Below, piece after piece: positions 1 to 13,865 of a stretch of DNA of 20,429 nt. Source of the DNA: a virus (lineage: Duplodnaviria; Heunggongvirae; Uroviricota; Caudoviricetes); IMG/VR virus record IMGVR_UViG_3300045988_007995, positions 1-20,429 of that record; one strand, given 5' to 3'. A model generated the notes under the pieces. That model ran no database searches. It had not been told where the DNA came from and was given only the letters and a program-made list of their open reading frames with translations. A program made the position numbers and the translations under genes. How positions within the stretch are numbered: the stretch's first letter is position 1; every line of letters begins with the position of its first letter.

Positions 1-1
1 T

Positions 2-400
2 TCACTCACTCAAGCAGGGCTAGTTGAAGGTTTTCAGTGGGTAGATGGAAGCTTCACAGAACATATTGAACTTATTGAAAAAAGGCCACCGAATGATGTC
101 GATGTTGTGACCTTTTTTCAATTCAGTAATGGCGATAATGATGCAATCGTAATCGGTAGAAAGCCAGAGCTATTTGATCATGATTTTGTTAAGAAGGAGT
201 TTTTCGTAGATTCCTACTTCCAAGAACTTAATCTACCAAGTCATGAGCTTGTTGAAATGACTGTATATTGGTACAGTATGTGGGCACATAGACGCGATCT
301 GTCGTGGAAGGGATTTATCCAAATCCCGTTAAACCCACAACTTGATGTTGTGGCAATGACTATACTTAATTCGGCTACTACTGAGGGGGTCAAACAATGA
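2..400 (+). CDS. 5'-truncated hypothetical protein; first gene of a two-gene operon in the immunity region (rexA-equivalent position)
   Basis: Reading frame is open from the window edge to TGA at 398-400 with no internal start before the end of the frame; stop overlaps the ATG of the next gene (ATGA at 397-400). AT-rich by eye. No motif I can assign. Confidence 0.55.
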   Translation, partial: SLTQAGLVEGFQWVDGSFTEHIELIEKRPPNDVDVVTFFQFSNGDNDAIVIGRKPELFDHDFVKKEFFVDSYFQELNLPSHELVEMTVYWYSMWAHRRDLSWKGFIQIPLNPQLDVVAMTILNSATTEGVKQ

Positions 401-1326
401 ATCGTAATGATTATGTTTTCGCTCTCAGTGAGCGCGAGCAAATAAGTAATCTATTAAAAAATATGCCAACAAGTCATTCTATTAGCCGAAAAAGCTTAGA
501 AGACCGTCTGGAGAAAGTTGAGCGATTAATTTCACAAGCTGACGTTCGAGAACATGAACCTACGCATGCTGTGTTAACTTTTAGAGGCCCAACAGTAGTT
601 GGCACGCATGGCATTTCAGCAGTATTTGGAACAAAAGCTATATCTTGTTTTAATGATGCAATAGCTTACTTGGCAACCTCTTTCAATGGCCCACTTCCTG
701 CATCAGGCAAGATACCAAACATAGAAAATAATCATCTCATGATTACCGCGTCAGCCCGTGGTTCTTTCGGATTCGTACTTGAAGAGTTTAGACCTGATGC
801 TCCTCTTGAATTCGATGAAGAAACCCCAGTAGCAAAAGCTATTAATAAGGCCAGAAAAATATTTCAGGCAAGCTTGGATAATGATGATGAAGAATTGTCT
901 GATGCTATAGAAAACTTAGACTCTCGGGCCTTAGATAAAATCAGAGCATTCATTCATTATCTGCATGAAAATAAAACAGTTTTTACACTTAAAAGCCAAG
1001 GTTTTAGCATCGTTTTTAGAGAGCCAAAACAGCTTGAAGCTGTATATCAACATCTCAGCAATGATAACATTCAGCAGGAAAAAATTATTGAGAACGTTAT
1101 ATTTTTGGGAACTCTTCCTAACAAGCGCCAATGTGAATTTATAGTTTTAGGTAACACTGATATCAGAACCGCTAGCATTGACAAAGCTGTAGATGACCCA
1201 GATATTATAAACAAGCACTTAGGAAGCGTTGCAACAGCCACGTTCCTGAAAAAAACTGTTGGTAAGGGCAAGCCCAGATACACTCTGGTTTCTCGACCTC
1301 AATGGGATATTAAATCAATCGATTAG
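397..1326 (+). CDS. hypothetical 309-aa protein; second gene of the immunity-region operon (rexB-equivalent position but not membrane-like)
   Basis: 309-codon ORF, ATG overlapping upstream stop (translational coupling), followed 15 nt later by a strong intrinsic terminator; AT-rich by eye; no long hydrophobic segments, no Walker or nuclease motif I can recognise. Confidence 0.7.
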   Translation: MNRNDYVFALSEREQISNLLKNMPTSHSISRKSLEDRLEKVERLISQADVREHEPTHAVLTFRGPTVVGTHGISAVFGTKAISCFNDAIAYLATSFNGPLPASGKIPNIENNHLMITASARGSFGFVLEEFRPDAPLEFDEETPVAKAINKARKIFQASLDNDDEELSDAIENLDSRALDKIRAFIHYLHENKTVFTLKSQGFSIVFREPKQLEAVYQHLSNDNIQQEKIIENVIFLGTLPNKRQCEFIVLGNTDIRTASIDKAVDDPDIINKHLGSVATATFLKKTVGKGKPRYTLVSRPQWDIKSID

Positions 1327-1340
1327 AATGAGCCCCTTCA

Positions 1341-1368
1341 GCCCGGCCTCCGCGCCGGGTTTTCTTTT
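1341..1368 (+). terminator. Rho-independent terminator closing the immunity-region operon (tImm-like position)
   Basis: GC-rich hairpin CCCGGC-ctccgc-GCCGGG (1342-1359) followed by TTTTCTTTT. Confidence 0.75.
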
Positions 1369-1518
1369 ACCATCAGCCCGTCAAAAACACACCTAACGAA
1401 TTGTATTTATTGAATAAATATAAATCACACTTATCACATTGCGCAATTCAGCTCCTACACATCCAGACTAGCTCTGCAAAACTTTAAAAAAATAAATCAA
1501 TAGTAAAAACATGCACAT

Positions 1519-1581
1519 AACCATTTGCGGTAATATTTTATCTCTAGCGGTGTTGACGAAAATACCTCCGGCGGTGATACT
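1519..1581 (+). promoter_or_regulatory. Lambda-type OL3-OL2-OL1 operator triplet overlapping a PL-like sigma70 promoter (rightward in this window)
   Basis: Three 17-bp sites AACCATTTGCGGTAATA (1519-1535), TATCTCTAGCGGTGTTG (1539-1555), TACCTCCGGCGGTGATA (1563-1579) with 3-bp and 7-bp spacers; -35 TTGACG (1553-1558), 17-bp spacer, -10 GATACT (1576-1581). By recollection each operator differs from lambda OL3/OL2/OL1 at only 1-2 positions and the downstream transcript start region (acacatcagcaggacgc) is lambda-like. Confidence 0.8.
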
Positions 1582-1626
1582 AAACACATCAGCAGGACGC
1601 TGGAAGCTAAATGGAACAGACTGGCA

Positions 1627-1673
1627 GGCTCTTTAAACAACGTCGACTCTCGACTACGTGGCTGAAAAGCCAG
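1627..1673 (+). promoter_or_regulatory. candidate nutL site (boxA plus boxB hairpin) in the PL leader
   Basis: boxA-like GGCTCTTTAAACAA (1627-1640) about 40 nt downstream of the predicted PL start, followed by small hairpin TGGCT-GAAA-AGCCA (1659-1672) with a GNRA-type loop; lies between PL and the N-like gene. Confidence 0.5.
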
Positions 1674-1770
1674 ATCACCCAACCACATAAGCTGTGGGAT
1701 GCAATGCCGAAGCAACCGTCTCAGGAGGAGCTTCGAGATTGCATCACCAAAGTTTATTCGGGAGGAATCT

Positions 1771-2043
1771 ATGTCCAGAAAAACAGAATTTAAAGGCACC
1801 TCAGCTTCTCGTCGTAGAGCTCGTCGCGCAAACCTGCAAAGTCAGGAGGCGATTAGCTCCGACAAGCTACACAGACCAACCCCCTCTCGAGTGGTCTTGC
1901 AATGCAAGCGCAAACCAGCAATGAGAGCAGAAGTAATAACACTGACAACGTTGACCAGAAAATATGAAGGCTCAACTTGTCTTCCAAATGTAGCTCTTTA
2001 CGCGGCAGGCTACCGGAAATCCAAACAACTGACAGCAAGATGA
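1771..2043 (+). CDS. N: N-like transcription antitermination protein (arginine-rich motif)
   Basis: ATG at 1771 preceded by GGAGG (1761-1765); N-terminal arginine-rich motif GTSASRRRARRANLQSQ resembling the ARM of lambdoid N proteins; first gene downstream of PL and nutL. The longer ORF from 1699 lacks an RBS and overlaps the leader. Confidence 0.7.
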   Translation: MSRKTEFKGTSASRRRARRANLQSQEAISSDKLHRPTPSRVVLQCKRKPAMRAEVITLTTLTRKYEGSTCLPNVALYAAGYRKSKQLTAR

Positions 2044-2104
2044 CTTGTGTTGGTCGCCAGAAAATGAAATTAGGCAGCAAACCACTTATTTGAGAGGAAT
2101 TAAT

Positions 2105-2728
2105 ATGTCATCAATCCGCTTAACTACGAGAATGAAAGAGAAAATCGCTCGTAACGCTTTAATTAAATCTGGGGTTTTCACTGAGCTTGAAGAAGTAACA
2201 AAGTTAAAGAACCAGCTTGCACTTGACGCCAGAGTTGTTGCGTTTGGCGGTAAAAAGAAAACTGAGGAAGTGGATCAGTTATCATCCAAGTTAATGGCTA
2301 TAAGCGAAGAACTTGAAAAGCTGGGATGTTCATTTTACTCATGCGATGCCCGTTCAACTTCAATTTATCTGACTGTATCTGGCAGAAGGGTTGGCTGGTA
2401 TTCATATGGGAAAGACGGCAACGGCGAAGATATATTGCTCCCTACTCCGACCAAAGATAAATGCATGTTTAGCGCAGAACACGAAATAACAAAAAGGTTT
2501 GATGAAATCTGCGCATTGCAACAAAAACTTGAAGCCAAGAAAAAGGATATCGAATCAAATGTATGGGCTGCTTTGAACTCAGTCACAACAGTTAAGCGAC
2601 TTATTGAAGTTTGGCCTGAAAGCAAAGAGTTGCTACCAAAAGAAGCAGATAAAGCAAGTACAGCACTTCCTGCTTTACGGGTAGAAGATTTGAATAAGAT
2701 GATTGGACTTCCTTCCGAGGTCGCATAA
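2105..2728 (+). CDS. hypothetical 207-aa protein (AT-rich insert between N and the tL1-like terminators)
   Basis: ATG at 2105 preceded by GAGAGGAA; ORF-track frame 2045-2728; AT-rich by eye; occupies the lambda ral/sieB/ea10 interval but resembles none of them to my recollection. Confidence 0.6.
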   Translation: MSSIRLTTRMKEKIARNALIKSGVFTELEEVTKLKNQLALDARVVAFGGKKKTEEVDQLSSKLMAISEELEKLGCSFYSCDARSTSIYLTVSGRRVGWYSYGKDGNGEDILLPTPTKDKCMFSAEHEITKRFDEICALQQKLEAKKKDIESNVWAALNSVTTVKRLIEVWPESKELLPKEADKASTALPALRVEDLNKMIGLPSEVA

Positions 2729-2862
2729 TCGTCCTTTATTTTTGGCATAAACAACAGAATAAACACTGCACTGTGTATTCATTCCAACGAGTGAATACAC
2801 GGAGCAATGTCGCTCGTAACCAAACAGGAGCCGACTTGTTCTGATTATTGGAAATCTTCTTT

Positions 2863-2888
2863 GCCCTCCAGTGTGAGGGCCTTTTTAT
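2863..2888 (+). terminator. intrinsic terminator (first of a tandem pair, tL1-like)
   Basis: Hairpin GCCCTC-cagtgt-GAGGGC (2863-2880) followed by CTTTTTA. Confidence 0.65.
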
Positions 2889-2902
2889 ATGCATACCAAT
2901 AA

Positions 2903-2924
2903 CGCTTCACTCGAGGCGTTTTTC
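2903..2924 (+). terminator. intrinsic terminator (second of the tandem pair)
   Basis: Hairpin CGCTTC-actc-GAGGCG (2903-2918, one G-U pair) followed by TTTTT. Confidence 0.6.
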
Positions 2925-2949
2925 GTTATGTATAAATAAGGAGCACACC

Positions 2950-3090
2950 ATGCAATATGCCATTGCAGGGTGGCCTGTTGCTGGCTGCCCTTCCGAATCT
3001 TTACTTGAACGAATCACCCGTAAATTACGTGACGGATGGAAACGCCTTATCGACATACTTAATCAGCCAGGAGTCCCAAAGAATGGATAA
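2950..3090 (+). CDS. cIII: CIII (FtsH/HflB inhibitor), truncated to 46 aa relative to lambda
   Basis: ATG at 2950 after AAGGAG; product MQYAIAGWPVAGCPSESLLERITRKLRDGWKRLIDILNQPGVPKNG matches my recollection of the first 46 residues of lambda CIII (54 aa); TAA at 3088-3090 where lambda continues. Confidence 0.8.
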   Translation: MQYAIAGWPVAGCPSESLLERITRKLRDGWKRLIDILNQPGVPKNG

Positions 3091-3196
3091 AACACTTATG
3101 GCTATCCAGACTAAATTCACTATCGCCGCTTTTATTGGCGATGAAAAGATGTTTCGTGAGGCCGTCGAAGCCTACAGAAAATGGAGGTCAAAATGA
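3083..3196 (+). CDS. kil: Kil-like FtsZ-inhibiting peptide
   Basis: ATG at 3083 overlapping the end of cIII as in lambda; product MDKTLMAIQTKFTIAAFIGDEKMFREAVEAYRKW... closely matches my recollection of the lambda Kil N-terminus; TGA at 3194-3196 overlaps the next start. Confidence 0.7.
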   Translation: MDKTLMAIQTKFTIAAFIGDEKMFREAVEAYRKWRSK

Positions 3197-3381
3197 TTCC
3201 GGTAGAACTGGCGAAAACTCCAGAGTTAAGTCGATTAAAAAGAGAATATCACATTGCTGAGGCTCGTTACTGGCGTAAAGCGGGAGATAAATCAAAGAAA
3301 CAACTTTGCTTATGGCAGGCACAAAGAGAGCGCATGAATGAGCGTGAGTTTCTTTCCTCCCCATCCGAATTACCATTCTGA
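3193..3381 (+). CDS. hypothetical small protein (62 aa)
   Basis: ATG at 3193 preceded by GGAGG (3183-3187); ATGA overlap with kil stop; sits where lambda has gam but is unrelated by eye. Confidence 0.5.
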   Translation: MIPVELAKTPELSRLKREYHIAEARYWRKAGDKSKKQLCLWQAQRERMNEREFLSSPSELPF

Positions 3382-3389
3382 GGCAAATT

Positions 3390-4070
3390 ATGGGAACTGC
3401 GACATTAATACTCGGTGAATCTGGCACCGGAAAATCAACCAGCATGAGAAATATCAATCCAGAGGAAGCAATACTTATAAAACCAATAGGCAAGCCGCTT
3501 CCATTTAAATCAAAAGACTGGCTGGCATGGGATGCCAGAGCAAAAAAAGGAACCGTAGTTACCACTGACAAATGGGACGTAATAGTTGCCGTAATTAAGC
3601 GTGCTCACGAATACGGGAAAAGAATCGTTATTGTTGATGACTTCCAGTATGTGATGAGCAATGAGTTTATGCGCCGCTCAGAAGAAAAATCGTTTGATAA
3701 ATTCACTGAGATAGGCCGCCACGCATGGGAGGTGATTAAGGCTGCACAGGATGCACCTGATGACCTGAGAGTCTATTTTCTCGCACACACCGAAGAAACC
3801 CCTATGGGGCGTGTGAAAATGAAGACTATCGGCAAAATGCTGGACGAGAAAATCACTGTCGAAGGCATGTTTACTATAGTTCTTCGCACCCTTACCCGCG
3901 ATGACCAGTTCTTTTTCACCACGAAAAACAACGGTGCAGACACTGTTAAATCCCCAATAGGAATGTTTGATTCCAATGAGATTGATAACGATCTCTCTTT
4001 CGTCGATGCCACTGTTTGTGATTACTACGGCATCAATAATGTTCATCAAATTAAGGAAAACGCCGCATGA
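3390..4070 (+). CDS. P-loop ATPase, Sak4-like / RecA-family recombination protein
   Basis: Walker A GESGTGKST near the N-terminus and Walker B-like RIVIVDD; about 226 aa; located where lambdoid phages carry the recombination module; AT-rich by eye. Confidence 0.7.
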   Translation: MGTATLILGESGTGKSTSMRNINPEEAILIKPIGKPLPFKSKDWLAWDARAKKGTVVTTDKWDVIVAVIKRAHEYGKRIVIVDDFQYVMSNEFMRRSEEKSFDKFTEIGRHAWEVIKAAQDAPDDLRVYFLAHTEETPMGRVKMKTIGKMLDEKITVEGMFTIVLRTLTRDDQFFFTTKNNGADTVKSPIGMFDSNEIDNDLSFVDATVCDYYGINNVHQIKENAA

Positions 4071-4654
4071 GCAACGTGATTTTTACTTATAACGAAGAAG
4101 CAGCACTGACCGCAGGGCAAGGTGGTTTTATTAACGAAACTGGCGCCCATATCATTACCATTACTGAAGCAGAACTAAAGAAATCAGAAAAAGGAGCCAA
4201 ATTTATTGAGTTTTCTGGAGAATCCGACGACGGACGTAAAATCCAGTATCTTAGCGTTTGTGTTCAGAAAAATGACGGAACGGAAAACAAATTTGGCGCA
4301 AATGTCGTTCACGCCATGATGGGGTGTGCCGGGATTGGACAATTAACACAGCATATGGTTTCCGCCAGTAAATTTGTTGCACCTGAATTTCATGGAAAGA
4401 AAATCGGGTTAGTGCTCCAGAAAGTATTAACCACAAACAAAAAGACTGGCGCAGACAGCTACCAGATGGAAATACGCATCCCGTTTATTGCACAAACAGG
4501 TCAAACCCTTAAAGAAAAGGCAGAAGGCAAGCAACCAGAAACTATCGCCGACATGGTTGCCAGCCTCAAAGATAAAGACAATCGCTCTAAAAACGTAAGC
4601 CAGAATCATGCAGATGATTATGGTTACAGCCAGAACGATTACCCTGCTTTCTGA
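4067..4654 (+). CDS. putative phage single-strand DNA-binding protein partner of the Sak4-like ATPase (DUF669-type is a guess)
   Basis: ATGA overlap with upstream ATPase gene; 195 aa; C-terminus ...DDYGYSQNDYPAF resembles an acidic SSB-type tail; family assignment is from recollection of Sak4-SSB gene pairs only. Confidence 0.5.
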   Translation: MSNVIFTYNEEAALTAGQGGFINETGAHIITITEAELKKSEKGAKFIEFSGESDDGRKIQYLSVCVQKNDGTENKFGANVVHAMMGCAGIGQLTQHMVSASKFVAPEFHGKKIGLVLQKVLTTNKKTGADSYQMEIRIPFIAQTGQTLKEKAEGKQPETIADMVASLKDKDNRSKNVSQNHADDYGYSQNDYPAF

Positions 4655-4677
4655 TTACTGAAAATAAGGCTCCCATT

Positions 4678-4974
4678 ATGCCAGCGCCTCTGTATGGTGC
4701 GGATGACCCGCGCAACTGCTCCGGTAGCTCCAAGGCGGAGGTGCTGGAGAATATCAAAAACAATTTCGACGCGTTTCTTGCTCTGACACCAGAAACAAAA
4801 GCAGAACGGATGTACCGACGCGATATACAACTCGCGCTAAAACAGGAGAAGGACCGAACAAACGAAACAGCAATGAGACCGTTGCGAAAAGCGACAATAG
4901 ACAAATTCCCTGAATATATCGACCCGCGCCTGCGTAATTACCGCTCACGTTATGGTGCTATCAGTAATGACTGA
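4678..4974 (+). CDS. hypothetical protein (98 aa)
   Basis: ORF in series with flanking plus-strand genes; weak RBS; no recognisable motif. Confidence 0.45.
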
Positions 4975-4984
4975 GGAATTTACC

Positions 4985-5149
4985 ATGAGAGGACTTGCAT
5001 ACAATCCCGGCATTCTTCCGGCAGAAATGATTATTCGCCAACGCGTAAAGCCAATGCCATCGAGAGAGGAATTGCTTAAGAGAAATTCTTTTCCGTCAGT
5101 GAATCAAAACAAATATCTGAATGCGATGTTGCGGAGTGGGAAGAAATGA
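4985..5149 (+). CDS. hypothetical small protein (54 aa)
   Basis: ATG at 4985 preceded by GAGGAA (4974-4979); ORF-track frame 4952-5149; stop overlaps next start (ATGA at 5146). Confidence 0.4.
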
Positions 5150-5691
5150 AACAAATGTCACTAATTGAGATGGATGGATTCCTGAAAGGTAAATGCATCC
5201 CAAGCGATTTAAAGGTTAACGAAACAAACGCTGAATATCTGGTGCGTAAATTTGCTGAAGCGGAGGCCAAGTGCGCGGCGCTGGCGGCGGAGAGTGCGCT
5301 GGCTCGTAAGGCAGTTCAGGCATTCTGCGATGTTGTTGGCGACAACACCGAGGTTATCTGTGAGGCGGTTGGGAGAGATGGCGTTCTGGTTATTTTGGAG
5401 GCCATGAAGGCAACAGGAAATATGTCAGCCACCGACGCTTTCCTGGCTGAAATACGTGCGGAGGCACGCAACGAGGGGATTAACTACACCGCAAGCCGTC
5501 TTGCTGCTGCGTTCAATCACGGATTTATCAATAAGTCTTTGCGTGAAGTTTTCGACGTTACACGCATGATTTTGTCAGCGAAAGAAGAGTTGGCTAATGA
5601 ACCGCATCCGATTGATGGCCTGTCCGGTGAATATGCGGAGAAATCCCTTGAAGAATGGGCGGAACAGATTCGCAAAGGAGGCAACCAGTGA
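5146..5691 (+). CDS. hypothetical protein (181 aa)
   Basis: Complete ORF, translationally coupled on both sides (ATGA at 5146, GTGA at 5688); Ala-rich; no motif assigned. Confidence 0.55.
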
Positions 5692-6323
5692 GCAAGATTG
5701 ACTATCAGGCACTGCGTGAGATAGCAAAACAGGCAACACAAGGCGAATGGGTCGCATTTATTTCGTCTGGTACTGGTACGTATGCGGTGCATACGCCCGG
5801 TGATGAACGATGTGAAGACGTTATCAAATGGACCGGCTTTGATGGACAGAAAAACGCAGAGAACAACGCCCATTATATCGCAGCTTTCAACCCTGAAGTA
5901 GTGCAGGCATTACTGGATGAACTGGAAGCCAAAGACAAAGCATGGTCCGCTCAGGACAACCATATCAACCAGCTGGCTGAACGAATTGAATCGCTGGAGA
6001 AGAAGAATGGCGAGATGGGAAGATCGCTGGAAGCCGCAGAGAAGCGCATAGCAGAACTGGAAGCACGGGAAATAAAACCAGCCAAAGGCGAAGTTCTTGT
6101 CGTTGTATCTGGTTTTACTGGTTGCGGGAAAAGCGCCATTGCCGGGGAAATAGAAATTGCGATGAAAGCTATTGGTGTGTCGGTTCAGTGGACTAATGGC
6201 GATGCGGAAAAGCGCATGACAGGAGCTGACTGGCTGACAGCGATTGAGATGTACAAACCAACTGTGCGCATCGTGGAAGTTAATGTGCCACGCGCCGCAG
6301 GCATTCGCATCAAAGGAGAGTGA
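5688..6323 (+). CDS. Ead/Ea22-like family protein (coiled-coil)
   Basis: GTG at 5688 preceded by AAAGGAGG; N-terminus [21 protein letters not shown]... and central heptad-like segment (LEAKDKAW...IAELEAR) match my recollection of lambdoid Ead/Ea22-like proteins. Confidence 0.6.
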   Translation: MSKIDYQALREIAKQATQGEWVAFISSGTGTYAVHTPGDERCEDVIKWTGFDGQKNAENNAHYIAAFNPEVVQALLDELEAKDKAWSAQDNHINQLAERIESLEKKNGEMGRSLEAAEKRIAELEAREIKPAKGEVLVVVSGFTGCGKSAIAGEIEIAMKAIGVSVQWTNGDAEKRMTGADWLTAIEMYKPTVRIVEVNVPRAAGIRIKGE

Positions 6324-6324
6324 T

Positions 6325-7272
6325 ATGACCACTATTACCAAAGAGCGACTGCTGACAATCAGGCAGTGGCGCGAAACATACGGACCTGGTAGCAACGTTG
6401 TACTGCCAGCAGAAGAAGCGGAAGAACTGGCACGAATTGCTCTGGCATCGCTGGAAGCAGAGCCGATAGGTTTCCGTTGCAGGCGCAATGATAACCTTGG
6501 TGATTGGAGTTACGTATATCATCGAGAGCCAGATGATTTTGAGCGCAAACATTTAGTGATAGAGGGCATTTACGCCGCCCCTCCAGCACCGGTAGTGCCT
6601 GAAGAAGCAACTCCGGAAAACGTAGAAATGCTCTCTGGCTATGTTTCAACGTACAAATTAACCGATAGCGAGCGCGATATTGCTGCCGAAATATGGAACG
6701 CCTGCCGCGCCGCCATGCTTCAGTCCGGAAACTTTCGGGAAAACAAGAATTCGTCAACCAATAATTTTCGGGAAATCGCGGAAACGTCAACCAACTATCC
6801 GGCAATTCCTAGTGAGGTGTTGTCCGCAATCCTGAAGGTTGCCAGGATTCGTGCCGATTTCGATGATTTTGACGGTGACAGGCGAGGTATCGGTGATTGT
6901 CTGGATGAGGCTGAGCAAGAGCTTATCGTTACCATTAACAAATATGCCAGTCAGTTGGCAGCAGAACCTATAGCGCCTAATGACGTTCGAGAGCAGACAG
7001 CCATTCCACAAGTTCCGGTAACTCCGGATGGTTGGATAAGCTGTAGTGAGCGAATGCCAGAAATGGGAGAGCGACAATGCTATGTGTTAGCTGCTGACTT
7101 TAAAAACAACTACCTACCAAGCATCCCCAACACTCAGGTCGGCGTATATGGCGACTGGTTTAATGATGGCAAGCCCACTTGGGATGACGGTGGTGGCGAA
7201 GACCTGTATCTCAAGGAGGTAACCCACTGGATGCCGCTGCCAGAACCGCCGCAGGAGGTTAACCGTGGCTAA
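6325..7272 (+). CDS. DUF551-domain protein
   Basis: ATG at 6325 after AAGGAG; C-terminal segment DGWISCSERMPEMGERQCYVLAAD...THWMPLPEPP has the pattern of the DUF551 domain common in lambdoid early regions. Confidence 0.6.
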   Translation: MTTITKERLLTIRQWRETYGPGSNVVLPAEEAEELARIALASLEAEPIGFRCRRNDNLGDWSYVYHREPDDFERKHLVIEGIYAAPPAPVVPEEATPENVEMLSGYVSTYKLTDSERDIAAEIWNACRAAMLQSGNFRENKNSSTNNFREIAETSTNYPAIPSEVLSAILKVARIRADFDDFDGDRRGIGDCLDEAEQELIVTINKYASQLAAEPIAPNDVREQTAIPQVPVTPDGWISCSERMPEMGERQCYVLAADFKNNYLPSIPNTQVGVYGDWFNDGKPTWDDGGGEDLYLKEVTHWMPLPEPPQEVNRG

Positions 7273-7546
7273 CCTGCAACTTGCCGTTAAAGGTGAATAC
7301 TTCGATGCCATGATTCGCGGAGAGAAAACGGAAGAGTATCGCCTGTGTAATGACTACTGGAATAAGCGAATTATGTTCCGCGAGTATGACCGCCTGATTA
7401 TCACAAAGGGATATCCGAAGCGCGACGATTCCAGCCGCAGAATTGACGTCCCGTATGACGGATATGAAATCAAGACAATCACACATCCGCACTTCGGCGA
7501 TAAGCCGGCAAAGGTGTTCGCGATAAAGGTGAATATTGATGGCTAA
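7265..7546 (+). CDS. small PUA-like (ASCH/DUF3850-type) protein, tentative
   Basis: GTG at 7265 preceded by AGGAGG (7251-7256); 93 aa; YFDAMIRGEKTEEYR pattern reminiscent of ASCH/DUF3850 proteins (recollection only). Confidence 0.4.
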   Translation: MANLQLAVKGEYFDAMIRGEKTEEYRLCNDYWNKRIMFREYDRLIITKGYPKRDDSSRRIDVPYDGYEIKTITHPHFGDKPAKVFAIKVNIDG

Positions 7547-7841
7547 ATCAGCAGCAGAGCGCAAAGCCGCTCAGAGAGCCAGACAAGCTGCATCTGGTGT
7601 GCGTAAGCTGGAAATTGTGCTTGATGCTCAGGAAATTGAAATGCTGGAGCGTAACTGTGCCACGCGTCGCCCCGGGCGTGCGCCTTACGAATTTGGTGAG
7701 TATATAGCGTTACTGATCCGCCAGGATGATGCACGCGTGCACGGGCGTATAAAATCGATCAGCAGAAACGTTGCGGTAAGTGCGGCGAGAGAGTTCCCGT
7801 TAATTCATGCCCGTGTAATGGTGACTCGGAATGCTGGGTGA
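7539..7841 (+). CDS. hypothetical basic protein (100 aa), last gene before the packaging module
   Basis: ATG at 7539 after AAGGTG, overlapping previous stop; Arg/Ala-rich N-terminus; no HNH or other motif seen. Confidence 0.5.
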   Translation: MAKSAAERKAAQRARQAASGVRKLEIVLDAQEIEMLERNCATRRPGRAPYEFGEYIALLIRQDDARVHGRIKSISRNVAVSAAREFPLIHARVMVTRNAG

Positions 7842-7871
7842 CTAAAGGCTGGCATGAAACGAAATTAATAG

Positions 7872-7885
7872 CGTGACATGTCACG
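7872..7885. repeat. perfect palindrome CGTGACATGTCACG (copy 1 of 3 of the GTGACATGTCAC core)
   Basis: Exact dyad symmetry read directly; same 12-bp core recurs at 10138-10149 and 10531-10542. Confidence 0.9.
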
Positions 7886-7925
7886 AGTAGATTATGCATG
7901 ATGAATTTGATGGGTTTTGAATACT

Positions 7926-7951
7926 GCCGCCAACTATGGCGGCTTTATTTT
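7926..7951 (+). terminator. intrinsic terminator between the early operon and terS
   Basis: Hairpin GCCGCC-aactat-GGCGGC (7926-7943) followed by TTTATTTT. Confidence 0.7.
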
Positions 7952-7958
7952 GCATGGT

Positions 7959-7987
7959 ACTATTACCACAACGGTAACTATTACCAC
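7959..7987 (+). repeat. two exact 11-bp direct repeats ACTATTACCAC immediately upstream of the terS start
   Basis: Copies at 7959-7969 and 7977-7987 (18-bp period), ending 8 nt before the predicted terS ATG. Confidence 0.85.
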
Positions 7988-7994
7988 GGTGGTT

Positions 7995-8591
7995 ATGATG
8001 CCTGCTGAACCTAAAACCTATAAACGCAAATCAACGCAATTTAAGCCACTAACAGCAATGCAGGAGGCTTATTGCCAGTCATACATCAAAACGCCTGAAA
8101 ACCAGACTCAGGCAGCGATTAACGCAGGATTCTCCCCAAATACAGCGGCAGTTAAAGCCAGTCTCATGATGCGCGATGAACGCATTCAAAAACGGATTGC
8201 CGAGCTGATGGAAGAGCGCAACAAACGAATGCGCGTCAGTGCTGATTACGTTCTCATGCGCCTGGTGGAGATCGACCAGATGGACGTGATCGACATCCTC
8301 AACGACGATGGGAGCCTTAAGCCAATCCGCGAGTGGCCGAAAATCTGGCGCACTACGCTTAGTGGCTTTGATCTGTCATCGACCATCATGAACATGAACG
8401 AGGATTCGATAGAGACAATCCTCAAAAAAATTAAATGGCCTGACAAGGTGAAGAACCTCGAACTGATTGGTAAGCACGTCGACGTCAACGCATTCAAAGA
8501 ACGCCTGGATGTTAATGTGAATGTGACAATTGCTGATCGCATAGCGGCAGCCAGGAAGAGACTGAAAGAACGTCAGGATGGCAATCAGTGA
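7995..8591 (+). CDS. terS: terminase small subunit (P27-family-like)
   Basis: Located immediately upstream of and overlapping (GTGA) the large terminase gene; start placed at ATG 7995 (MMPAEPKTYKRK...) because the ORF-track extension from 7917 spans the terminator and direct repeats. Confidence 0.65.
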   Translation: MMPAEPKTYKRKSTQFKPLTAMQEAYCQSYIKTPENQTQAAINAGFSPNTAAVKASLMMRDERIQKRIAELMEERNKRMRVSADYVLMRLVEIDQMDVIDILNDDGSLKPIREWPKIWRTTLSGFDLSSTIMNMNEDSIETILKKIKWPDKVKNLELIGKHVDVNAFKERLDVNVNVTIADRIAAARKRLKERQDGNQ

Positions 8592-10063
8592 CAGATACAG
8601 CGTTATCTCCTGAAGAGCAGTTAATCGAGGATATTGCAGGGTTCACTCACGATCCGCTTGGCTATGCCCTCTATGCGTTCCCATGGGGGGAAGAGGGGAC
8701 TGAACTGGCACATGCCACCGGCCCACGTCAGTGGCAGGCTGATGCGTTCCGAGAGATACGTGATCACCTGCAGAATCCAGAGACGCGCTATCAGCCGCTT
8801 ATGCTGGCACGCGCTTCTGGTCACGGTATTGGTAAATCCGCATTCATCTCAATGCTGATCAACTGGGGCATGTCCACTTGCGAGGATTGTAAGGTCGTGG
8901 TGACCGCCAACACCGACAACCAGCTACGAACGAAGACCTGGCCGGAAATTATCAAGTGGTCGAACCTTGCTATCACGAAAGACTGGTTTACCTGTACCGC
9001 TACCGCGATGTACAGCAATGACCTAGGGCACGACAAGCGGTGGCGGGCTGACGCAATACCCTGGTCTGAGCACAACACCGAGGCATTCGCCGGACTACAC
9101 AACGAGCGCAAACGCATCATCGTGGTGTTTGATGAAGCGTCGAACATTGCGGATCTGGTGTGGGAAGTTGCCGAGGGTGCGCTTACGGACGAAGACACTG
9201 AGATTATTTGGGTGGCGTTCGGAAACCCTACACGTAACACCGGGCGTTTTCGCGAATGTTTCCGCAAATATAAACACCGCTGGAAAACTGCGCAGATTGA
9301 CAGCCGGACGGTGGAAGGCACTAACAAACAGCAGTTGCAGAAATGGGTTGATGACTACGGGGAAGACAGCGACTTCGTTAAAATCCGTGTGCGTGGCATA
9401 TTCCCTGATGCATCTGAATTGCAGTTTATCCCTACCGGTCTTACTGACGAGGCAATGAAACGGGTGGTAACCGCTGCGCAGGTTGCACATGCTCCGGTGA
9501 TAATCGGCGTTGACCCGGCATACTCCGGCGTTGATGACGCTGTGATATACCTGCGGCAGGGGCTACACAGTAAGGTGCTGTGGACTGGCAACAAGACTAC
9601 CGACGATCTGATTATGGCGAAGCGTATCGCTGACTTTGAAGACCAGTATCAGGCTGACGCGGTGTTCATCGACTTCGGTTACGGAACCGGTTTGAAGTCA
9701 ATCGGTGACGGCTGGGGTCGTACATGGCAACTTGTTCCGTTCGGTGGCGCGTCTACTGACCCGCAGATGCTCAACAAGCGTGGGGAGATGTTCAATTCAT
9801 GCAAGACATGGCTGAGGCTGGGCGGCATGCTGGATGACCAGGAAACAGCAGACGACCTGTCGGCGGCAGAGTACAAAGTTCGAGTGGACGGTAAAATCGT
9901 TATCGAACCGAAGGAAGATATCAAGGAGCGGCTTGGGCGTTCACCGGGTAAAGGCGATGCGCTACTGCTGACGTTTGCGTTCCCTGTGTCTAAGCGTCTG
10001 CGAATTCCCGGTCAGCAGAACCAGCAAGGCAAGGCCATCACAGATTACGATCCCTATGCTTAA
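8588..10063 (+). CDS. terL: terminase large subunit
   Basis: 491-aa ORF; GTG start overlapping terS stop; ATPase-like segment ...IIVVFDEASNI... (Walker B-like) and overall size and position typical of phage TerL. Confidence 0.85.
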   Translation: MTDTALSPEEQLIEDIAGFTHDPLGYALYAFPWGEEGTELAHATGPRQWQADAFREIRDHLQNPETRYQPLMLARASGHGIGKSAFISMLINWGMSTCEDCKVVVTANTDNQLRTKTWPEIIKWSNLAITKDWFTCTATAMYSNDLGHDKRWRADAIPWSEHNTEAFAGLHNERKRIIVVFDEASNIADLVWEVAEGALTDEDTEIIWVAFGNPTRNTGRFRECFRKYKHRWKTAQIDSRTVEGTNKQQLQKWVDDYGEDSDFVKIRVRGIFPDASELQFIPTGLTDEAMKRVVTAAQVAHAPVIIGVDPAYSGVDDAVIYLRQGLHSKVLWTGNKTTDDLIMAKRIADFEDQYQADAVFIDFGYGTGLKSIGDGWGRTWQLVPFGGASTDPQMLNKRGEMFNSCKTWLRLGGMLDDQETADDLSAAEYKVRVDGKIVIEPKEDIKERLGRSPGKGDALLLTFAFPVSKRLRIPGQQNQQGKAITDYDPYA

Positions 10064-10104
10064 TCCGCTGGTGGGGATAATGTCGTTGATATCCTCTGGT
10101 GAGG

Positions 10105-10133
10105 ATAAAACAAAGCCAGCTCATAGGCTGGCT
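10105..10133 (-). terminator. minus-strand intrinsic terminator downstream of the opposite-strand gene pair
   Basis: Hairpin AGCCAGC-ctatga-GCTGGCT followed on the minus strand by TTGTTTTAT; protects terL from antisense read-through. Confidence 0.5.
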
Positions 10134-10137
10134 GTTT

Positions 10138-10149
10138 GTGACATGTCAC
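10138..10149. repeat. palindrome GTGACATGTCAC (copy 2), 4 nt downstream of the gene A stop codon
   Basis: Exact 12-bp palindrome; flanking context CTGtTTGTGACATGTCACGGtGTTA nearly identical to copy 3. Confidence 0.9.
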
Positions 10150-10153
10150 GGTG

Positions 10154-10486
10154 TTATTTCGGTAGATTGTGTTTGGCATTCGACTCGTCTATCACGTAAC
10201 GCATTGCAGTTCGACCGAGATTACCAGGATCTTCATGCAGACTCACTCGTGCCTTTAGGAGCACACATTCAGCCTTGACATAGTTTGCTGGAATTATTCC
10301 TACCTCGGCATTTTTAAATGCCTCCTTCACCGCCTCACCGTTGTACTGACCGCCAAGCAACTCTGTACATGTCAGGTTGTTATGGATAATTGCAAGGAGA
10401 TCTTTAATCTCTTCACGCAGGTTTACAATCGCCATCGCGGCATTGATAGCTGCGGCATAGCGCTCAGCTGCAGTCTTCTCTTTCAT
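10154..10486 (-). CDS. hypothetical 110-aa protein (opposite-strand insert gene A)
   Basis: Minus-strand ORF; start placed at MKEKTAAERY... (ATG complement at 10484-10486) preceded by AAGGTGA; the only long ORF in this interval on either strand. Confidence 0.55.
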   Translation of the reverse strand: MKEKTAAERYAAAINAAMAIVNLREEIKDLLAIIHNNLTCTELLGGQYNGEAVKEAFKNAEVGIIPANYVKAECVLLKARVSLHEDPGNLGRTAMRYVIDESNAKHNLPK

Positions 10487-10498
10487 GATTTTCACCTT

Positions 10499-10525
10499 AA
10501 AAAAATGCCCGGCGAATCGGCGGGC
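10499..10525 (-). promoter_or_regulatory. conserved hairpin plus T7 tract directly upstream of gene A RBS (copy 1 of duplicated 5' element)
   Basis: Minus strand reads GCCCGCCGATTCGCCGGGCATTTTTTTAAGGTGAAAATCATG; terminator-like stem GCCCG/CGGGC then U-tract, immediately followed by the RBS. Confidence 0.5.
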
Positions 10526-10530
10526 TGATT

Positions 10531-10542
10531 GTGACATGTCAC
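10531..10542. repeat. palindrome GTGACATGTCAC (copy 3), 4 nt downstream of the gene B stop codon
   Basis: Exact 12-bp palindrome in context CTGaTTGTGACATGTCACGGcGTTA. Confidence 0.9.
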
Positions 10543-10546
10543 GGCG

Positions 10547-10969
10547 TTAGAAGGTTATTTTATCGAATGCGGCGTTGATTGCCTTGGCGTCCTGCTCAGC
10601 ACCAACCACATCAAGTAAAGATCTTTTACTAAGCACTTCAGCCAGGCATTGTAACTTCATGTTGTATAAGTTTTCGCGCATGTAATCATCATCACTTTTT
10701 TCTTTGGCGTATACAGCGCGAGAAATATCAAACACATTGCCTTTTTCCATTTCAGTTTTCTGCGCTGAAATCCAGTCATGGCAAGTAACTCCTATTCCAT
10801 GGTCATCGCTAAGCGTTAACCCGGCAAGTCGCTCACCTGGAATTGCTTCACAAAGCATTTCATTTCCTGCAAAAACACCATAAAAAATTGAGTCATCACC
10901 CTGAACAATGCGTACATATTTGCACGGCCATTCATTTAGATATTTAGCTAGCATGTCGGCTGTTTTCAT
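10547..10969 (-). CDS. hypothetical 140-aa protein (opposite-strand insert gene B)
   Basis: Minus-strand ORF; start placed at MKTADMLAKY... (ATG complement at 10967-10969) preceded by TAGGTGA; upstream ORF-track extension crosses the hairpin/T-tract and is rejected. Confidence 0.55.
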   Translation of the reverse strand: MKTADMLAKYLNEWPCKYVRIVQGDDSIFYGVFAGNEMLCEAIPGERLAGLTLSDDHGIGVTCHDWISAQKTEMEKGNVFDISRAVYAKEKSDDDYMRENLYNMKLQCLAEVLSKRSLLDVVGAEQDAKAINAAFDKITF

Positions 10970-10979
10970 GATCTCACCT

Positions 10980-11005
10980 AAAAAAAATGCCCGGCGAATC
11001 GGGCG
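10980..11005 (-). promoter_or_regulatory. conserved hairpin plus T8 tract directly upstream of gene B RBS (copy 2 of duplicated 5' element)
   Basis: Minus strand reads CGCCCGATTCGCCGGGCATTTTTTTTAGGTGAGATCATG; about 40 nt alignable with copy 1. Confidence 0.5.
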
Positions 11006-11045
11006 AACTGGAAGCAATGAGTTATGCCTTCCGTGGCTGTACTGG

Positions 11046-11085
11046 TTTACAGCATGAAGCCATCGCAATGGCGTCATGCTGTAAA
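11046..11085. repeat. 40-bp near-perfect nested palindrome
   Basis: TTTACAGCATGA-aGCCATcgcaATGGCg-TCATGCTGTAAA: 12-bp outer arms with a 5-bp inner dyad. Confidence 0.85.
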
Positions 11086-11124
11086 AAGGGCGGTGATAGT
11101 CCTTCAAGGGAAACCATCACCGCC
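11083..11124 (-). terminator. minus-strand terminator 43 nt downstream of the tRNA
   Basis: 9-bp stem GGCGGTGAT/ATCACCGCC with 18-nt loop, followed on the minus strand by CTTTTT. Confidence 0.5.
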
Positions 11125-11167
11125 AAGCCCCTGGAACTTCTGGCATCACGGTCCTTAGGCGTGATTC

Positions 11168-11244
11168 TGGCGTGGCATGCAGGATTCGAACCTGCGACCA
11201 ACCGCTTAGAAAGCGGTTGCTCTGTCCAGCTGAGCTAATGCCAC
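11168..11244 (-). tRNA. tRNA-Arg (anticodon UCU), phage-encoded
   Basis: 77-nt cloverleaf on the minus strand: acceptor GTGGCAT/ATGCCAC, D-stem GCTC/GAGC, anticodon stem ACCGC/GCGGT with loop TT-TCT-AA, T-stem GCAGG/CCTGC with TTCGAAT loop, discriminator G and encoded CCA. Confidence 0.85.
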
Positions 11245-11671
11245 AACGCTGAGAGCACTTAGCCTGTTAAGGCGCCACACTTTGTCGCGGCTCCATAAAT
11301 GCTCTCATCGTTGTACCCTCGTCTCTTCCGAGGCGTCACACCGAATCGCCGGGATGGTGAATCCCCGTGCGCGGAATAAAACCGCTCGACTTGCACATTC
11401 CGGCTACCTGGTTCGTTTGCCACAGCCAGGGAGGGTGCCCCTTAAACGTATCCAGACCGCTATCGGCGCATGTGCCATACGCCGTACTGCTCAAAATAAA
11501 AGCTCACTCCACCTGTTCAATTTAACGACAAGCCAGTCAGGTTAGTAACCGGAATGAACTCTTTGGTTACCTGAAAGGTAATAATTTGTGCGTTAAATGT
11601 CAACTACCTACGATAAATAAATCATATGTGGTTAAATTGGTAATAATTTAATTGCGTACGGAGTCATTGAT

Positions 11672-11878
11672 ATGTGCATGGGTAGCTCACCATCAGTGCC
11701 TGCAACACCAGAAGTTCAGGCAGCACCACAGGAGCAGGATGCCGCCGTTGTTGATGCCCGCGACGAAGAAACTCGTCGCCGTCGCGCTGCTGCTGGTCGT
11801 AGTTCTACGCTGCTTACCGGTTCTCAGGGCGACACATCAACCGCTAATACCAGCGGTAAAACGCTGCTTGGTCAGTAA
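11672..11878 (+). CDS. small virion-associated protein candidate (T7 gp6.7-like?), 68 aa
   Basis: ATG at 11672 preceded by GGAG; begins MC..., Ser/Pro/Ala-rich; immediately upstream of the portal gene, whose leader shares the motif CGGAGTCATTGA(t/a)ATG. Confidence 0.45.
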   Translation: MCMGSSPSVPATPEVQAAPQEQDAAVVDARDEETRRRRAAAGRSSTLLTGSQGDTSTANTSGKTLLGQ

Positions 11879-11892
11879 CCGGAGTCATTGAA

Positions 11893-13572: not shown

Positions 13573-13865
13573 CAGATTACGAAGACGATCAACTGAAAGA
13601 AGAAAACGCCCGTAAGCAACGTGACATGGCACAGCGTGAAATTGATGACATTTGCTTTGTCATGAGCAGTGAACAGGGGCGTCGCGTTGTCTGGTCGGTG
13701 CTGGAGAAAGGCCGTGTGTTTTCCGCTATCTCACCGATGGACGCTATGGCAATGGCATTTAATGAGGGGCAACGCAATCTGGCGCTGGAACTGTTTCAGC
13801 GCGTTATGGCGCATTGCCCTGAACAGTATTTGAAGATGGCCAAAGAGGCCAGTGAACAGGAGTGA
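13569..13865 (+). CDS. hypothetical protein (98 aa) between portal and scaffold genes
   Basis: ATGA overlap with portal stop; acidic; no motif assigned. Confidence 0.5.
   Translation: MTDYEDDQLKEENARKQRDMAQREIDDICFVMSSEQGRRVVWSVLEKGRVFSAISPMDAMAMAFNEGQRNLALELFQRVMAHCPEQYLKMAKEASEQE

What the first reader, a model, noticed from the sequence alone, without database searches (positions are those of the whole stretch)
1519..1581. Near-lambda OL3-OL2-OL1/PL with point substitutions in every operator
Operator spacing (3 bp and 7 bp) and sequence are almost those of lambda, but each 17-mer carries 1-2 substitutions relative to what I recall (e.g. TATCTCTAGCGGTGTTG against TATCTCTGGCGGTGTTG). This fixes the orientation of the whole region and predicts lambda-type immunity, possibly with altered repressor affinity.
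Basis: partly seen in the sequence, partly recalled or inferred. Interest (0 to 1): 0.45.

Follow-up and report, generated by a model that had tools for sequence, protein, structure and literature searches.

The report
Diverged natural lambda-type OL/PL operator
This is the left operator-promoter (OL3-OL2-OL1/PL) of an E. coli prophage that carries a diverged natural version of phage lambda's immunity region; its nine base changes fall where they should barely affect repressor binding, so it is an ordinary, well-understood genetic switch element.

Summary
Window 1519-1581 holds three 17-bp sites, OL3 1519-1535, OL2 1539-1555 and OL1 1563-1579. They have lambda's 3-bp and 7-bp spacers and overlap a TTGACG-17-GATACT promoter that reads rightward. 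Against NC_001416 the operators carry 2, 1 and 2 substitutions. The spacers carry four more, one of which is the last base of the -35 hexamer.

An N antiterminator gene (1771-2043) and a candidate nutL site lie downstream on the + strand. The window itself does not reach cI. Nine other loci carry this exact 63-bp segment. Eight of them encode one identical cI allele upstream, 224/237 identical to lambda CI with an identical helix-turn-helix. The ninth is cut inside cI. Wherever cro is held, Cro is 66/66 identical to lambda Cro.

Scored with the published Sarai-Takeda substitution energies, each operator is predicted only 0.3-0.5 kcal/mol weaker than lambda's, and the order OL1>OL2>OL3 is kept. 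All five operator changes sit at tolerant positions (P about 0.01). Two of them also occur in mEp332, a wild phage of lambda immunity specificity.

This is a new, more diverged allele of a known kind, present in 8 of 5,426 complete E. coli genomes. Interest is low.

The parts
2..400 (+). 3' part of a DUF6932 gene, the first passenger gene downstream of cI in the 'rex slot' of the cI operon
   Evidence: Pfam PF22014, E 7e-19. The full-length gene follows cI in CE10 at L002 8822-9400. It gives a weak match to the PADLOC candidate PDC-M63A.
397..1326 (+). 309-aa gene of unknown function, the second passenger gene in the place of rexA/rexB
   Evidence: No Pfam, NCBIfam or PADLOC hit. It matches phrog_18731, function unknown. 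It occupies the same position in CE10, L020, L021, L023 and L025.
1340..1371 (+). Intrinsic terminator that ends the cI operon, the equivalent of lambda Timm
   Evidence: An 8-bp stem with 6 G-C pairs followed by TTCTTTT. A Timm terminator is annotated at the same relative place in the wild lambda-immunity phages.
1486..1518 (+). A/T-rich segment just upstream of OL3, conserved among lambda-immunity prophages. In lambda this region is reported to hold IHF/UP elements that stimulate PL; only the title of that paper was seen here.
   Evidence: The AAAAAATAAAT...AAAAACAT...ATAACC block is invariant or nearly so in 11 aligned sequences, while the sequence further upstream is not. Giladi et al. 1998 was seen only as a reference in PMC3708714. 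The function in this window is inferred.
1519..1535 (+). OL3: AACCATTTGCGGTAATA, 2 substitutions against lambda
   Evidence: Predicted ddG relative to OR1 is 1.8 kcal/mol, against 1.5 for lambda OL3.
1539..1555 (+). OL2: TATCTCTAGCGGTGTTG, 1 substitution. Its last 3 bp are the start of the -35 hexamer.
   Evidence: Predicted ddG is 1.5 kcal/mol, against 1.1 for lambda OL2. The same G-to-A change is present in mEp332 and in three sampled prophages.
1553..1581 (+). PL promoter: -35 TTGACG (lambda has TTGACA), 17-bp spacer, -10 GATACT
   Evidence: It is the only promoter-like site in 1250-2100. It is colinear with the PL annotated in the wild phage records.
1563..1579 (+). OL1: TACCTCCGGCGGTGATA, 2 substitutions against lambda OL1 and 1 against lambda OR1. 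It overlaps the -10 hexamer.
   Evidence: Predicted ddG is 0.3 kcal/mol, against -0.2 for lambda OL1.
1587..1601 (+). Module junction at the transcription start. The predicted +1 is A1588, 7 nt after the -10 hexamer, by homology. The stretch CATCAGCAGGACGC is shared by the lambda-type operator module on the left and the Stx-phage-type N leader on the right.
   Evidence: Similarity to lambda runs up to 1600. Identity of 99.1% to the VT2-Sakai/933W-type N leaders starts at 1587. The +1 position follows the annotation of the EF1204xx records.
1628..1636 (+). Candidate nutL boxA: GCTCTTTAA
   Evidence: Read directly from the sequence. No experimental support.
1659..1672 (+). Candidate nutL boxB hairpin: UGGCU-GAAA-AGCCA
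   Evidence: It aligns with the boxB annotated in mEp234 and lambda. The minimum-free-energy fold of 1620-1685 pairs GGCU/AGCC differently, so the hairpin is assigned by homology and not by the fold.
1771..2043 (+). N antiterminator gene, 90 aa, with the arginine-rich N-terminus MSRKTEFKGTSASRRRARRA. It is the first gene of the PL operon.
   Evidence: Pfam PF25694, E 7e-32. PHROG 271 'anti-termination protein N-like', E 1e-24.
2937..2995 (+). cIII thermoregulator RNA element, further down the same PL operon
   Evidence: Rfam RF01804, 88.5 bits against a gathering score of 50.

Best explanation
Window 1519-1581 is the functional left operator and promoter of a lambdoid prophage whose immunity region is a diverged natural allele of phage lambda's. 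In a lysogen, dimers of a lambda-specificity CI repressor, encoded about 2.5 kb upstream just outside the window, bind OL1 and OL2 cooperatively. This occludes the -10 and -35 hexamers of PL and shuts off the N-cIII-kil-recombination operon that runs rightward. OL3 supplies the extra dimer that, in lambda, helps close the OL-OR loop and damp PRM. After induction or infection, PL fires at about A1588 and N acts at nutL. The nine base differences from lambda are old, nearly neutral drift under purifying selection. They avoid the base pairs that dominate CI binding energy, so specificity stays that of lambda and affinities change only slightly. Shown here: the sequence anatomy, the strict linkage of this OL to one cI allele, and the selection pattern. 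Inferred: actual CI and Cro binding, homo-immunity with lambda, looping, and promoter strength.
For: (1) The segment is colinear with the annotated lambda OL/PL without gaps, and the consensus half of every operator is kept (CGGTGATA in OL1; CGGTGTTG in OL2; CGGTAATA in OL3, with one change at a weakly contributing position). (2) The three sites are the three best CI-matrix scores in the whole window. (3) A single promoter lies in the expected register, with N and nutL downstream and a Timm-like terminator upstream. (4) The exact 63-mer recurs in CE10, in 8 of 5,426 complete E. coli genomes in all, in 5 IMG/VR contigs and in 3 further assemblies. In eight of these nine loci it is linked to the identical cI allele; the ninth, L013, is cut inside cI. 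Seven of them also carry CE10's exact OR; L016 has two OR changes and L013 does not reach OR. (5) That cI is 224/237 identical to lambda CI and the helix-turn-helix ([20 protein letters not shown]) is unchanged. Cro is 66/66 identical and OR1 is identical. (6) Purifying selection: cI has 50 synonymous against 13 non-synonymous codon differences, and cro has 7 against 0. The operators differ at 5 of 51 positions against 4 of 10 in the spacers (Fisher P=0.03). The summed predicted ddG of the five operator changes is 1.2 kcal/mol, and random substitutions reach a value that low with P=0.01. (7) Two of the five operator changes, OL3 C7T and OL2 G8A, also occur in mEp332, one of the wild phages described as having lambda immunity specificity. 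(8) The one within-haplotype OL variant seen (L025) differs in the OL2-OL1 spacer and not in an operator.
Against: The window itself contains neither cI, cro nor OR, so linkage is inferred from identical sequence in other genomes. The energy matrix was measured on OR1 with laboratory lambda CI. Its additive predictions misrank lambda's own OL2/OL3 and OR2/OR3 by about 1 kcal/mol when compared with the measured values in PMC2685085, so differences of 0.3-0.5 kcal/mol are not resolvable. Three operator changes (OL1 A5T and T7C, OL3 G14A) and the -35 A-to-G change have no experimentally characterised carrier. The linked cI has 13 substitutions, including Y60S next to the DNA-binding surface and R196K, Y210F and M212I in the C-terminal domain. 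The linked OR2 has four clustered changes. Effects on cooperativity or on the switch set-point cannot be excluded. Cro binding energetics were not evaluated.
Confidence: 0.85

Rival explanations
1. The allele has drifted into a partly distinct immunity or a shifted switch set-point. The operator changes (a weaker OL3, a changed OL1, and OR2 in the linked region), together with the 13 CI substitutions and a weaker -35 hexamer, would alter relative occupancies, looping or PRM autoregulation. They could even give asymmetric or partial hetero-immunity with lambda.
For: This is the most diverged lambda-type allele sampled. It shows 9 of 63 OL differences against 0-5 in six wild lambda-immune phages. 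Its cI is 95% identical to lambda's against 97-99% in the other sampled prophages. The cI-cro DNA is about 91.5% identical to every characterised lambda-immunity phage. OR2 carries four clustered changes predicted to strengthen it by about 1 kcal/mol. The CI changes include Y210F, at a position where Y210H abolishes cooperativity.
Against: The helix-turn-helix and the N-terminal arm are identical to those of other wild lambda-immunity alleles, and Cro is identical. The high-energy operator positions are untouched, and the predicted per-site changes are at most 0.5 kcal/mol. The amino-acid changes are conservative.
Confidence: 0.1
2. The segment is a decaying, non-functional operator remnant in a defective prophage, and the substitutions reflect relaxed selection.
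For: The window's prophage has an unusual architecture: a lambdoid PL operon fused to Uetakevirus structural genes. This could indicate a rearranged or defective element, or an assembly join.
Against: The identical 63-mer is kept in nine other loci, next to intact cI and cro under strong purifying selection wherever those genes are held. The substitutions are depleted in the operators relative to the spacers and avoid costly positions. The promoter hexamers and their spacing are intact.
Confidence: 0.04
3. The resemblance to the lambda operators is due to chance.
For: None.
Against: There is 54 of 63 identity in register with the annotated lambda OL/PL. The expected number of chance matches is 0.02 for a single operator. 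The flanking genes are syntenic with lambda's.
Confidence: 0.01

Closest known systems
Phage lambda OL3-OL2-OL1/PL (NC_001416 35591-35651 and the PL promoter)
   Same: Three 17-bp operators in the same order, with the same 3-bp and 7-bp spacers and the same register with the -35 and -10 hexamers. The -10 hexamer is identical and the first 14 transcribed bases are identical. 54 of 63 bases are identical. In the linked region CI is 95% identical, Cro is 100% identical and OR1 is identical.
   Different: There are five operator substitutions and four spacer substitutions, one of which turns the -35 hexamer into TTGACG. rexA/rexB are replaced by a DUF6932 gene and a 309-aa gene of unknown function. 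The N gene and nutL leader are of the Stx-phage (VT2-Sakai/933W) type from +1 onward. The OL-OR distance in CE10 is about 2.5 kb, against 2.3 kb in lambda.
Wild phages with lambda immunity specificity (Degnan et al. 2007; GenBank EF120455-EF120461: HK544, mEp332, HK244, HK542, CL707, mEp234, HK106)
   Same: The architecture is the same: lambda-type cI, cro, OR and OL, a Timm terminator, non-rex passenger genes between cI and OL, and non-lambda N alleles joined right at PL. mEp332 shares the OL3 C7T and OL2 G8A changes.
   Different: In the six records examined here (EF120455-EF120460), those phages differ from lambda at 0-5 of the 63 OL/PL positions; this allele differs at 9. Their cI-cro DNA is as far from this allele (about 91.5% identity) as lambda's is, so this allele branches outside the characterised group. 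HK106 (EF120461) was seen only as a cI-cro hit.
N/nutL module of Stx-converting phages (VT2-Sakai, 933W, Stx1/Stx2 phages)
   Same: Window 1587-1700 is 99.1% identical to the leader and start of the N gene in these phages.
   Different: Those phages have their own, unrelated repressor and operators upstream. Here the module is joined to a lambda-type OL/PL.

Membership tests
Lambda-type OL/PL tripartite operator | Three 17-bp pseudo-symmetric sites matching the lambda half-site consensus (TATCACCGC), in the order O3-O2-O1 with 3-bp and 7-bp spacers | tested here: met
   Gap-free alignment to the annotated lambda operators. The sites are the three best matrix scores in the window.
Lambda-type OL/PL tripartite operator | A sigma-70 promoter whose -35 hexamer overlaps O2 and whose -10 hexamer overlaps O1, reading away from cI | tested here: met
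   TTGACG-17-GATACT at 1553-1581 on the + strand. It is the only promoter-like site in 1250-2100.
Lambda-type OL/PL tripartite operator | An N antiterminator gene and a nut site as the first elements of the transcript | tested here: met
   PF25694 N_peptide at 1771-2043. Candidate boxA at 1628-1636 and boxB at 1659-1672, the latter aligned with annotated boxB sites. The allele is of the Stx-phage type, not lambda's.
Lambda immunity specificity (imm-lambda) | A cognate CI repressor with lambda's DNA-recognition helices, encoded upstream in the same operon direction | tested here: inconclusive
   cI is not inside the window, which starts in the gene after cI. Eight of the nine other loci with the identical OL encode one identical cI allele, 224/237 identical to lambda CI with an identical helix-turn-helix. 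The ninth (L013) is cut at cI residue 37.
Lambda immunity specificity (imm-lambda) | A lambda Cro and a matching OR1-OR2-OR3 | tested here: inconclusive
   These lie outside the window. In CE10, Cro is 66/66 identical, OR1 is identical, OR3 has 1 change and OR2 has 4 changes. Cro is also 66/66 in the IMG/VR contigs that reach it.
Lambda immunity specificity (imm-lambda) | A lysogen is immune to lambda and sensitive to imm434/imm21 hybrids and to lambda vir; CI footprints the operators | not testable with these tools
   No experiment on this allele was found. Only two of the five operator changes occur in a phage reported as lambda-immune (mEp332).
Canonical lambda immunity region gene content | rexA-rexB between cI and OL | tested here: not met
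   DUF6932 plus a 309-aa unknown gene take their place. The wild lambda-immunity phages also lack rex, so this feature does not define the specificity.

The most novel reading that the evidence does not exclude
The CE10-type haplotype (this OL, an OR2 with four clustered changes, and a CI carrying Y60S, R196K, Y210F and M212I) could be a naturally re-tuned lambda switch. Its operator hierarchy, looping and PRM autoregulation, and hence its induction threshold, would differ measurably from lambda's. It might also show asymmetric partial hetero-immunity. That would make it a natural intermediate on the path by which new immunity specificities arise.
Probability: 0.1. Interest if true: 0.45.

Novelty: new member of a known kind. 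Interest (0 to 1): 0.17.

Why it matters
The practical value is for annotation. The segment fixes the direction of early-left transcription, places the missing cI just upstream of the window, and identifies the prophage as lambda-immunity type. As biology it is a modest natural experiment. An immunity region about 8-10% diverged from lambda at the DNA level has kept Cro unchanged and the CI recognition helix unchanged, and it has changed operators only at energetically cheap positions. This fits the earlier finding that the lambda switch is strongly conserved in the wild. The allele could serve as a ready-made test of how much operator drift the circuit tolerates.

Tried and rejected
(1) I first expected the OL3 G-to-A change (C4-to-T in the consensus half) to be a strong operator-down mutation, because C4 is invariant in lambda's half-sites. 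The Sarai-Takeda values tabulated in PMC2194778 give only +0.6 kcal/mol for it, so I dropped that idea.

(2) I looked for the window's own source in order to read its cI. No complete E. coli genome, no GTDB species-representative genome (0 hits) and none of the five IMG/VR contigs holds the whole window. Linkage therefore rests on other genomes with the identical left part.

(3) I tried to read Degnan et al. 2007, Sarai & Takeda 1989 and Takeda et al. 1989 directly. None is held. I used the GenBank records of the first and a secondary tabulation of the second. No Cro energy matrix was obtained, so Cro binding was not scored.

(4) The RNA fold of 1620-1685 did not single out the boxB hairpin (z = -1.0). 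boxB is assigned by alignment only.

(5) An Rfam scan of 1-8000 found nothing at OL/PL or nutL. It found only the cIII thermometer and one sub-threshold chance hit.

(6) NCBIfam gave no hit for N or for the passenger genes.

Full report
1. THE OBSERVATION

Window 1519-1581 reads AACCATTTGCGGTAATA-TTT-TATCTCTAGCGGTGTTG-ACGAAAA-TACCTCCGGCGGTGATA-CT. I fetched lambda NC_001416, where operator-l1, -l2 and -l3 are annotated at 35591-35651, and aligned it with the window.

- The two are colinear without gaps.
- OL3 (1519-1535) has 2 substitutions, OL2 (1539-1555) has 1 and OL1 (1563-1579) has 2.
- The 3-bp and 7-bp spacers are kept in length but differ at 2 positions each.
- The total is 9 differences in 63 bp.

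The match is not due to chance. Lambda OL1 with up to 3 mismatches is expected 0.02 times in shuffled windows and occurs once. I then scanned both strands of the whole window with the experimental single-substitution free energies of Sarai & Takeda, as tabulated in PMC2194778 Table 5. The three sites are the three best 17-mers, at 0.3, 1.5 and 1.8 kcal/mol relative to OR1. The next best 17-mer scores 3.2.

2. ANATOMY AND ORIENTATION

- The only sigma-70-like promoter between 1250 and 2100 is TTGACG (1553-1558), a 17-bp spacer, then GATACT (1576-1581), on the + strand. It is in lambda's register: the -35 hexamer overlaps OL2 and the -10 hexamer overlaps OL1. The last -35 base is G where lambda has A.
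- By homology with the annotated wild-phage records, +1 is A1588.
- Upstream, a stem-loop followed by a T-run at 1340-1371 ends the preceding + strand operon. This corresponds to the Timm terminator annotated in the related records.
- Downstream lie a candidate boxA (GCTCTTTAA, 1628-1636) and a boxB-like hairpin (1659-1672) that aligns with the annotated boxB of mEp234 and lambda.
- The N gene follows at 1771-2043 (PF25694, E 7e-32; phrog_271).
- Next come an Nmad5 gene, the cIII thermometer (RF01804, 88.5 bits), kil and recombination genes.

3. MOSAIC STRUCTURE AROUND THE OPERATORS

- Similarity to lambda runs from about 1342 to 1600, at 76% overall and higher across the operators.
- From 1587 onward the sequence is 99.1% identical to the N leader of VT2-Sakai/933W-type Stx phages.
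- The two modules meet in the shared stretch CATCAGCAGGACGC, right at the transcription start.
- rexA/rexB are replaced by a DUF6932 gene and a 309-aa gene of unknown function.
- This pattern matches the GenBank records EF120455-EF120461: a lambda immunity core, non-rex passenger genes, and foreign N alleles joined at PL.
[quoted passage not shown] The paper itself is not held.

4. IS THIS LAMBDA IMMUNITY?

The window starts inside the gene that follows cI, so I used relatives.

- Window 1-5133 is 99.9% identical to a torS-integrated prophage of E. coli CE10.
- Window 1-6473 is 99.8% identical to the same prophage type in other assemblies.
- In CE10, the 714-nt gene just upstream encodes a CI that is 224/237 identical to lambda CI. 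Residues 1-60 are identical except T3A (ORF numbering), a change shared by all wild alleles sampled.
- Cro is 66/66 identical to lambda Cro.
- OR1 is identical, OR3 has one change and OR2 has four clustered changes.
- Nine other loci carry the exact 63-bp OL: CE10 (L002), the IMG/VR contigs L012-L016, and the assemblies L020, L021 and L023. Eight encode the identical cI allele. L013 is cut at cI residue 37 and shows 12 mismatches over the 202 residues held.
- One further locus with the same cI (L025) differs in OL only by one base, in the OL2-OL1 spacer.
- OL, cI, OR and cro therefore form one haplotype. It occurs in 8 of 5,426 complete E. coli genomes, while about 620 others carry OL regions only 80-90% identical to the window's. 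All nine of those that I fetched proved to be lambda-type.
- The exact CI protein is seen on 408 contigs of the protein collection.

5. SELECTION PATTERN AND PREDICTED EFFECT

Against lambda:

- cI has 71 nucleotide differences. 50 codons differ synonymously and 13 non-synonymously.
- cro has 7 differences, all synonymous.
- In OL the operators differ at 5 of 51 positions and the spacers at 4 of 10 (Fisher P=0.03).

The five operator changes and their predicted effects under the matrix are:

| Operator | Change | Predicted ddG (kcal/mol) | Note |
|---|---|---|---|
| OL1 | A5T | +0.2 | Makes the position the same as in OR1 |
| OL1 | T7C | +0.3 | |
| OL2 | G8A | +0.4 | |
| OL3 | C7T | -0.3 | |
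| OL3 | G14A | +0.6 | |

- Their sum is 1.2 kcal/mol. Five random substitutions spread over the operators in the same way (2, 1, 2) average about 1.4 kcal/mol each, and they reach a sum that low with P=0.01.
- None touches consensus-half positions 2 or 5-8, where the penalties are 2-3.7 kcal/mol.
- The predicted site energies are OL1 0.3 (lambda -0.2), OL2 1.5 (lambda 1.1) and OL3 1.8 (lambda 1.5). The hierarchy is kept.
- These shifts of 0.3-0.5 kcal/mol are smaller than the model's error. For lambda's own six operators the additive model departs from the measured affinities by up to about 1 kcal/mol and swaps OL2/OL3 and OR2/OR3.

Two of the five changes, OL3 C7T and OL2 G8A, also occur in mEp332 (EF120456). 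That phage belongs to the collection described as having lambda immunity specificity. The other five wild phages examined have a 63-mer identical to lambda's.

6. HOW IT MOST LIKELY WORKS

The mechanism is lambda's.

- CI dimers bind cooperatively at OL1 and OL2 and occlude PL.
- OL3 provides the additional dimer that, with OR3, stabilises the OL-OR loop and attenuates PRM (mechanism summarised in PMC2685085).
- The OL3-OR3 distance in CE10 is about 2.5 kb, against 2.3 kb in lambda (read).
- On derepression PL fires, and N modifies RNA polymerase at nutL.

Shown here are the sequence features, the linkage and the selection pattern. Binding, immunity, looping and the effect of TTGACG on promoter strength are inferred.

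7. RIVAL EXPLANATIONS

- A re-tuned or partly hetero-immune switch is possible but not favoured, at about 0.1. In its favour, this is the most diverged lambda-type allele sampled. Its cI is 95% identical to lambda's against 97-99% in the other prophages, and its cI-cro DNA is about 91.5% identical to every characterised lambda-immunity phage. Its OR2 is predicted about 1 kcal/mol stronger. CI carries Y210F at a residue where Y210H abolishes cooperativity. Against it, the recognition helix and Cro are unchanged.
- Decay in a defective prophage is contradicted by the selection pattern and by the recurrence of the identical sequence.
- Chance is excluded.

8. COMPARISON WITH WHAT IS KNOWN, AND VERDICT

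- This is a member of the lambda OL/PL kind. The membership features testable inside the window are met: operator number, sequence and spacing, promoter register, and N/nut.
- The features that define immunity specificity (CI, Cro, OR) are met only in relatives with the identical OL. The phenotype is untested.
- It is a new, more diverged allele of a known element and not a new mechanism.
- The interest is low. It would be useful as a natural variant for quantitative switch studies.

9. SEEN IN PASSING

- From 5276 to the end, the window is 97-98% identical to Uetakevirus (phiV10/PAS61-like) Eae/Ea22/DUF551 genes and structural genes. Window 1-6473 is lambdoid. The 1.2-kb overlap is common to both phage types, and no complete E. 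coli genome or fetched contig holds the whole arrangement. It is either a recombinant prophage or an assembly join.
- In a normal Uetakevirus the rightward replication operon, not a PL-type operon, leads into these genes.

Noticed in passing
window 5276-6473 (junction zone) and 5276-20429: The lambdoid PL operon runs straight into Uetakevirus (phiV10/PAS61-like) Eae/Ea22/DUF551, terminase and structural genes, where the xis-int-torS end seen in CE10-type prophages would be expected. The 1.2-kb stretch 5276-6473 matches both phage types. No complete E. coli genome or fetched contig contains the whole window. It is either a genuine recombinant prophage or an assembly mis-join across a shared repeat.
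   Followed up: partly
window 2-1326 (full first gene in L002 8822-9400): The 'rex slot' between cI and OL holds a DUF6932 protein, which gives a weak hit to the PADLOC candidate defence family PDC-M63A (E 2e-10), and a 309-aa protein with no Pfam, NCBIfam or PADLOC match (phrog_18731). Other lambda-immunity prophages carry quite different cargo at this spot: HicAB, a Ser/Thr kinase, an SDH-family protease, a P63C-domain protein, and DUF3024 or DUF1828 proteins. It looks like a hypervariable locus of lysogen-expressed genes, probably for defence.
   Followed up: partly
window 1659-1672: The candidate nutL boxB is UGGCU-GAAA-AGCCA. It has a 5-bp stem and a 4-nt GNRA loop, one base shorter than lambda's GAAGA/GAAAA pentaloop. 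It aligns with the annotated boxB of mEp234 and lambda. A second small hairpin, GUCGA-CUC-UCGAC (1642-1654), lies between boxA and boxB.
   Followed up: partly
L002 7972-7988 (OR2 of the same haplotype, outside the window): OR2 carries four clustered substitutions (CAACACGCACGGTGTTA in lambda becomes CAACATCTGCGGTGTTA). Its centre then reads CACCGCAGATG on the other strand, identical to the centre of lambda OL3. The change is predicted to strengthen OR2 by about 1 kcal/mol. L016 has a further variant, CAACATCCGCGG. Gene conversion between operators is one possible origin.
   Followed up: partly
L002 8022-8735 (cI linked to this OL, outside the window): The 13 CI substitutions include conservative changes R196K, Y210F and M212I (mature numbering) in the C-terminal domain. 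Y210H is a known cooperativity-deficient mutant (PMC3048382). Y60S and R82K are unique to this allele among the seven alleles aligned.
   Followed up: no
window 1611-1793 and 1771-2043: RefSeq annotates a 60-aa 'hypothetical protein' across the nutL leader. In CE10 it labels the N gene only as 'hypothetical protein'. The 60-aa ORF has no family hit and overlaps boxA and boxB, so it is probably spurious.
   Followed up: partly
window 2105-2728: An Nmad5 (nucleotide modification associated domain 5) gene sits immediately after N, as the second gene of the PL operon (PF18757, E 6e-71).
   Followed up: no
window 2937-2995: A lambda cIII thermoregulator RNA element is intact (RF01804, 88.5 bits).
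   Followed up: no
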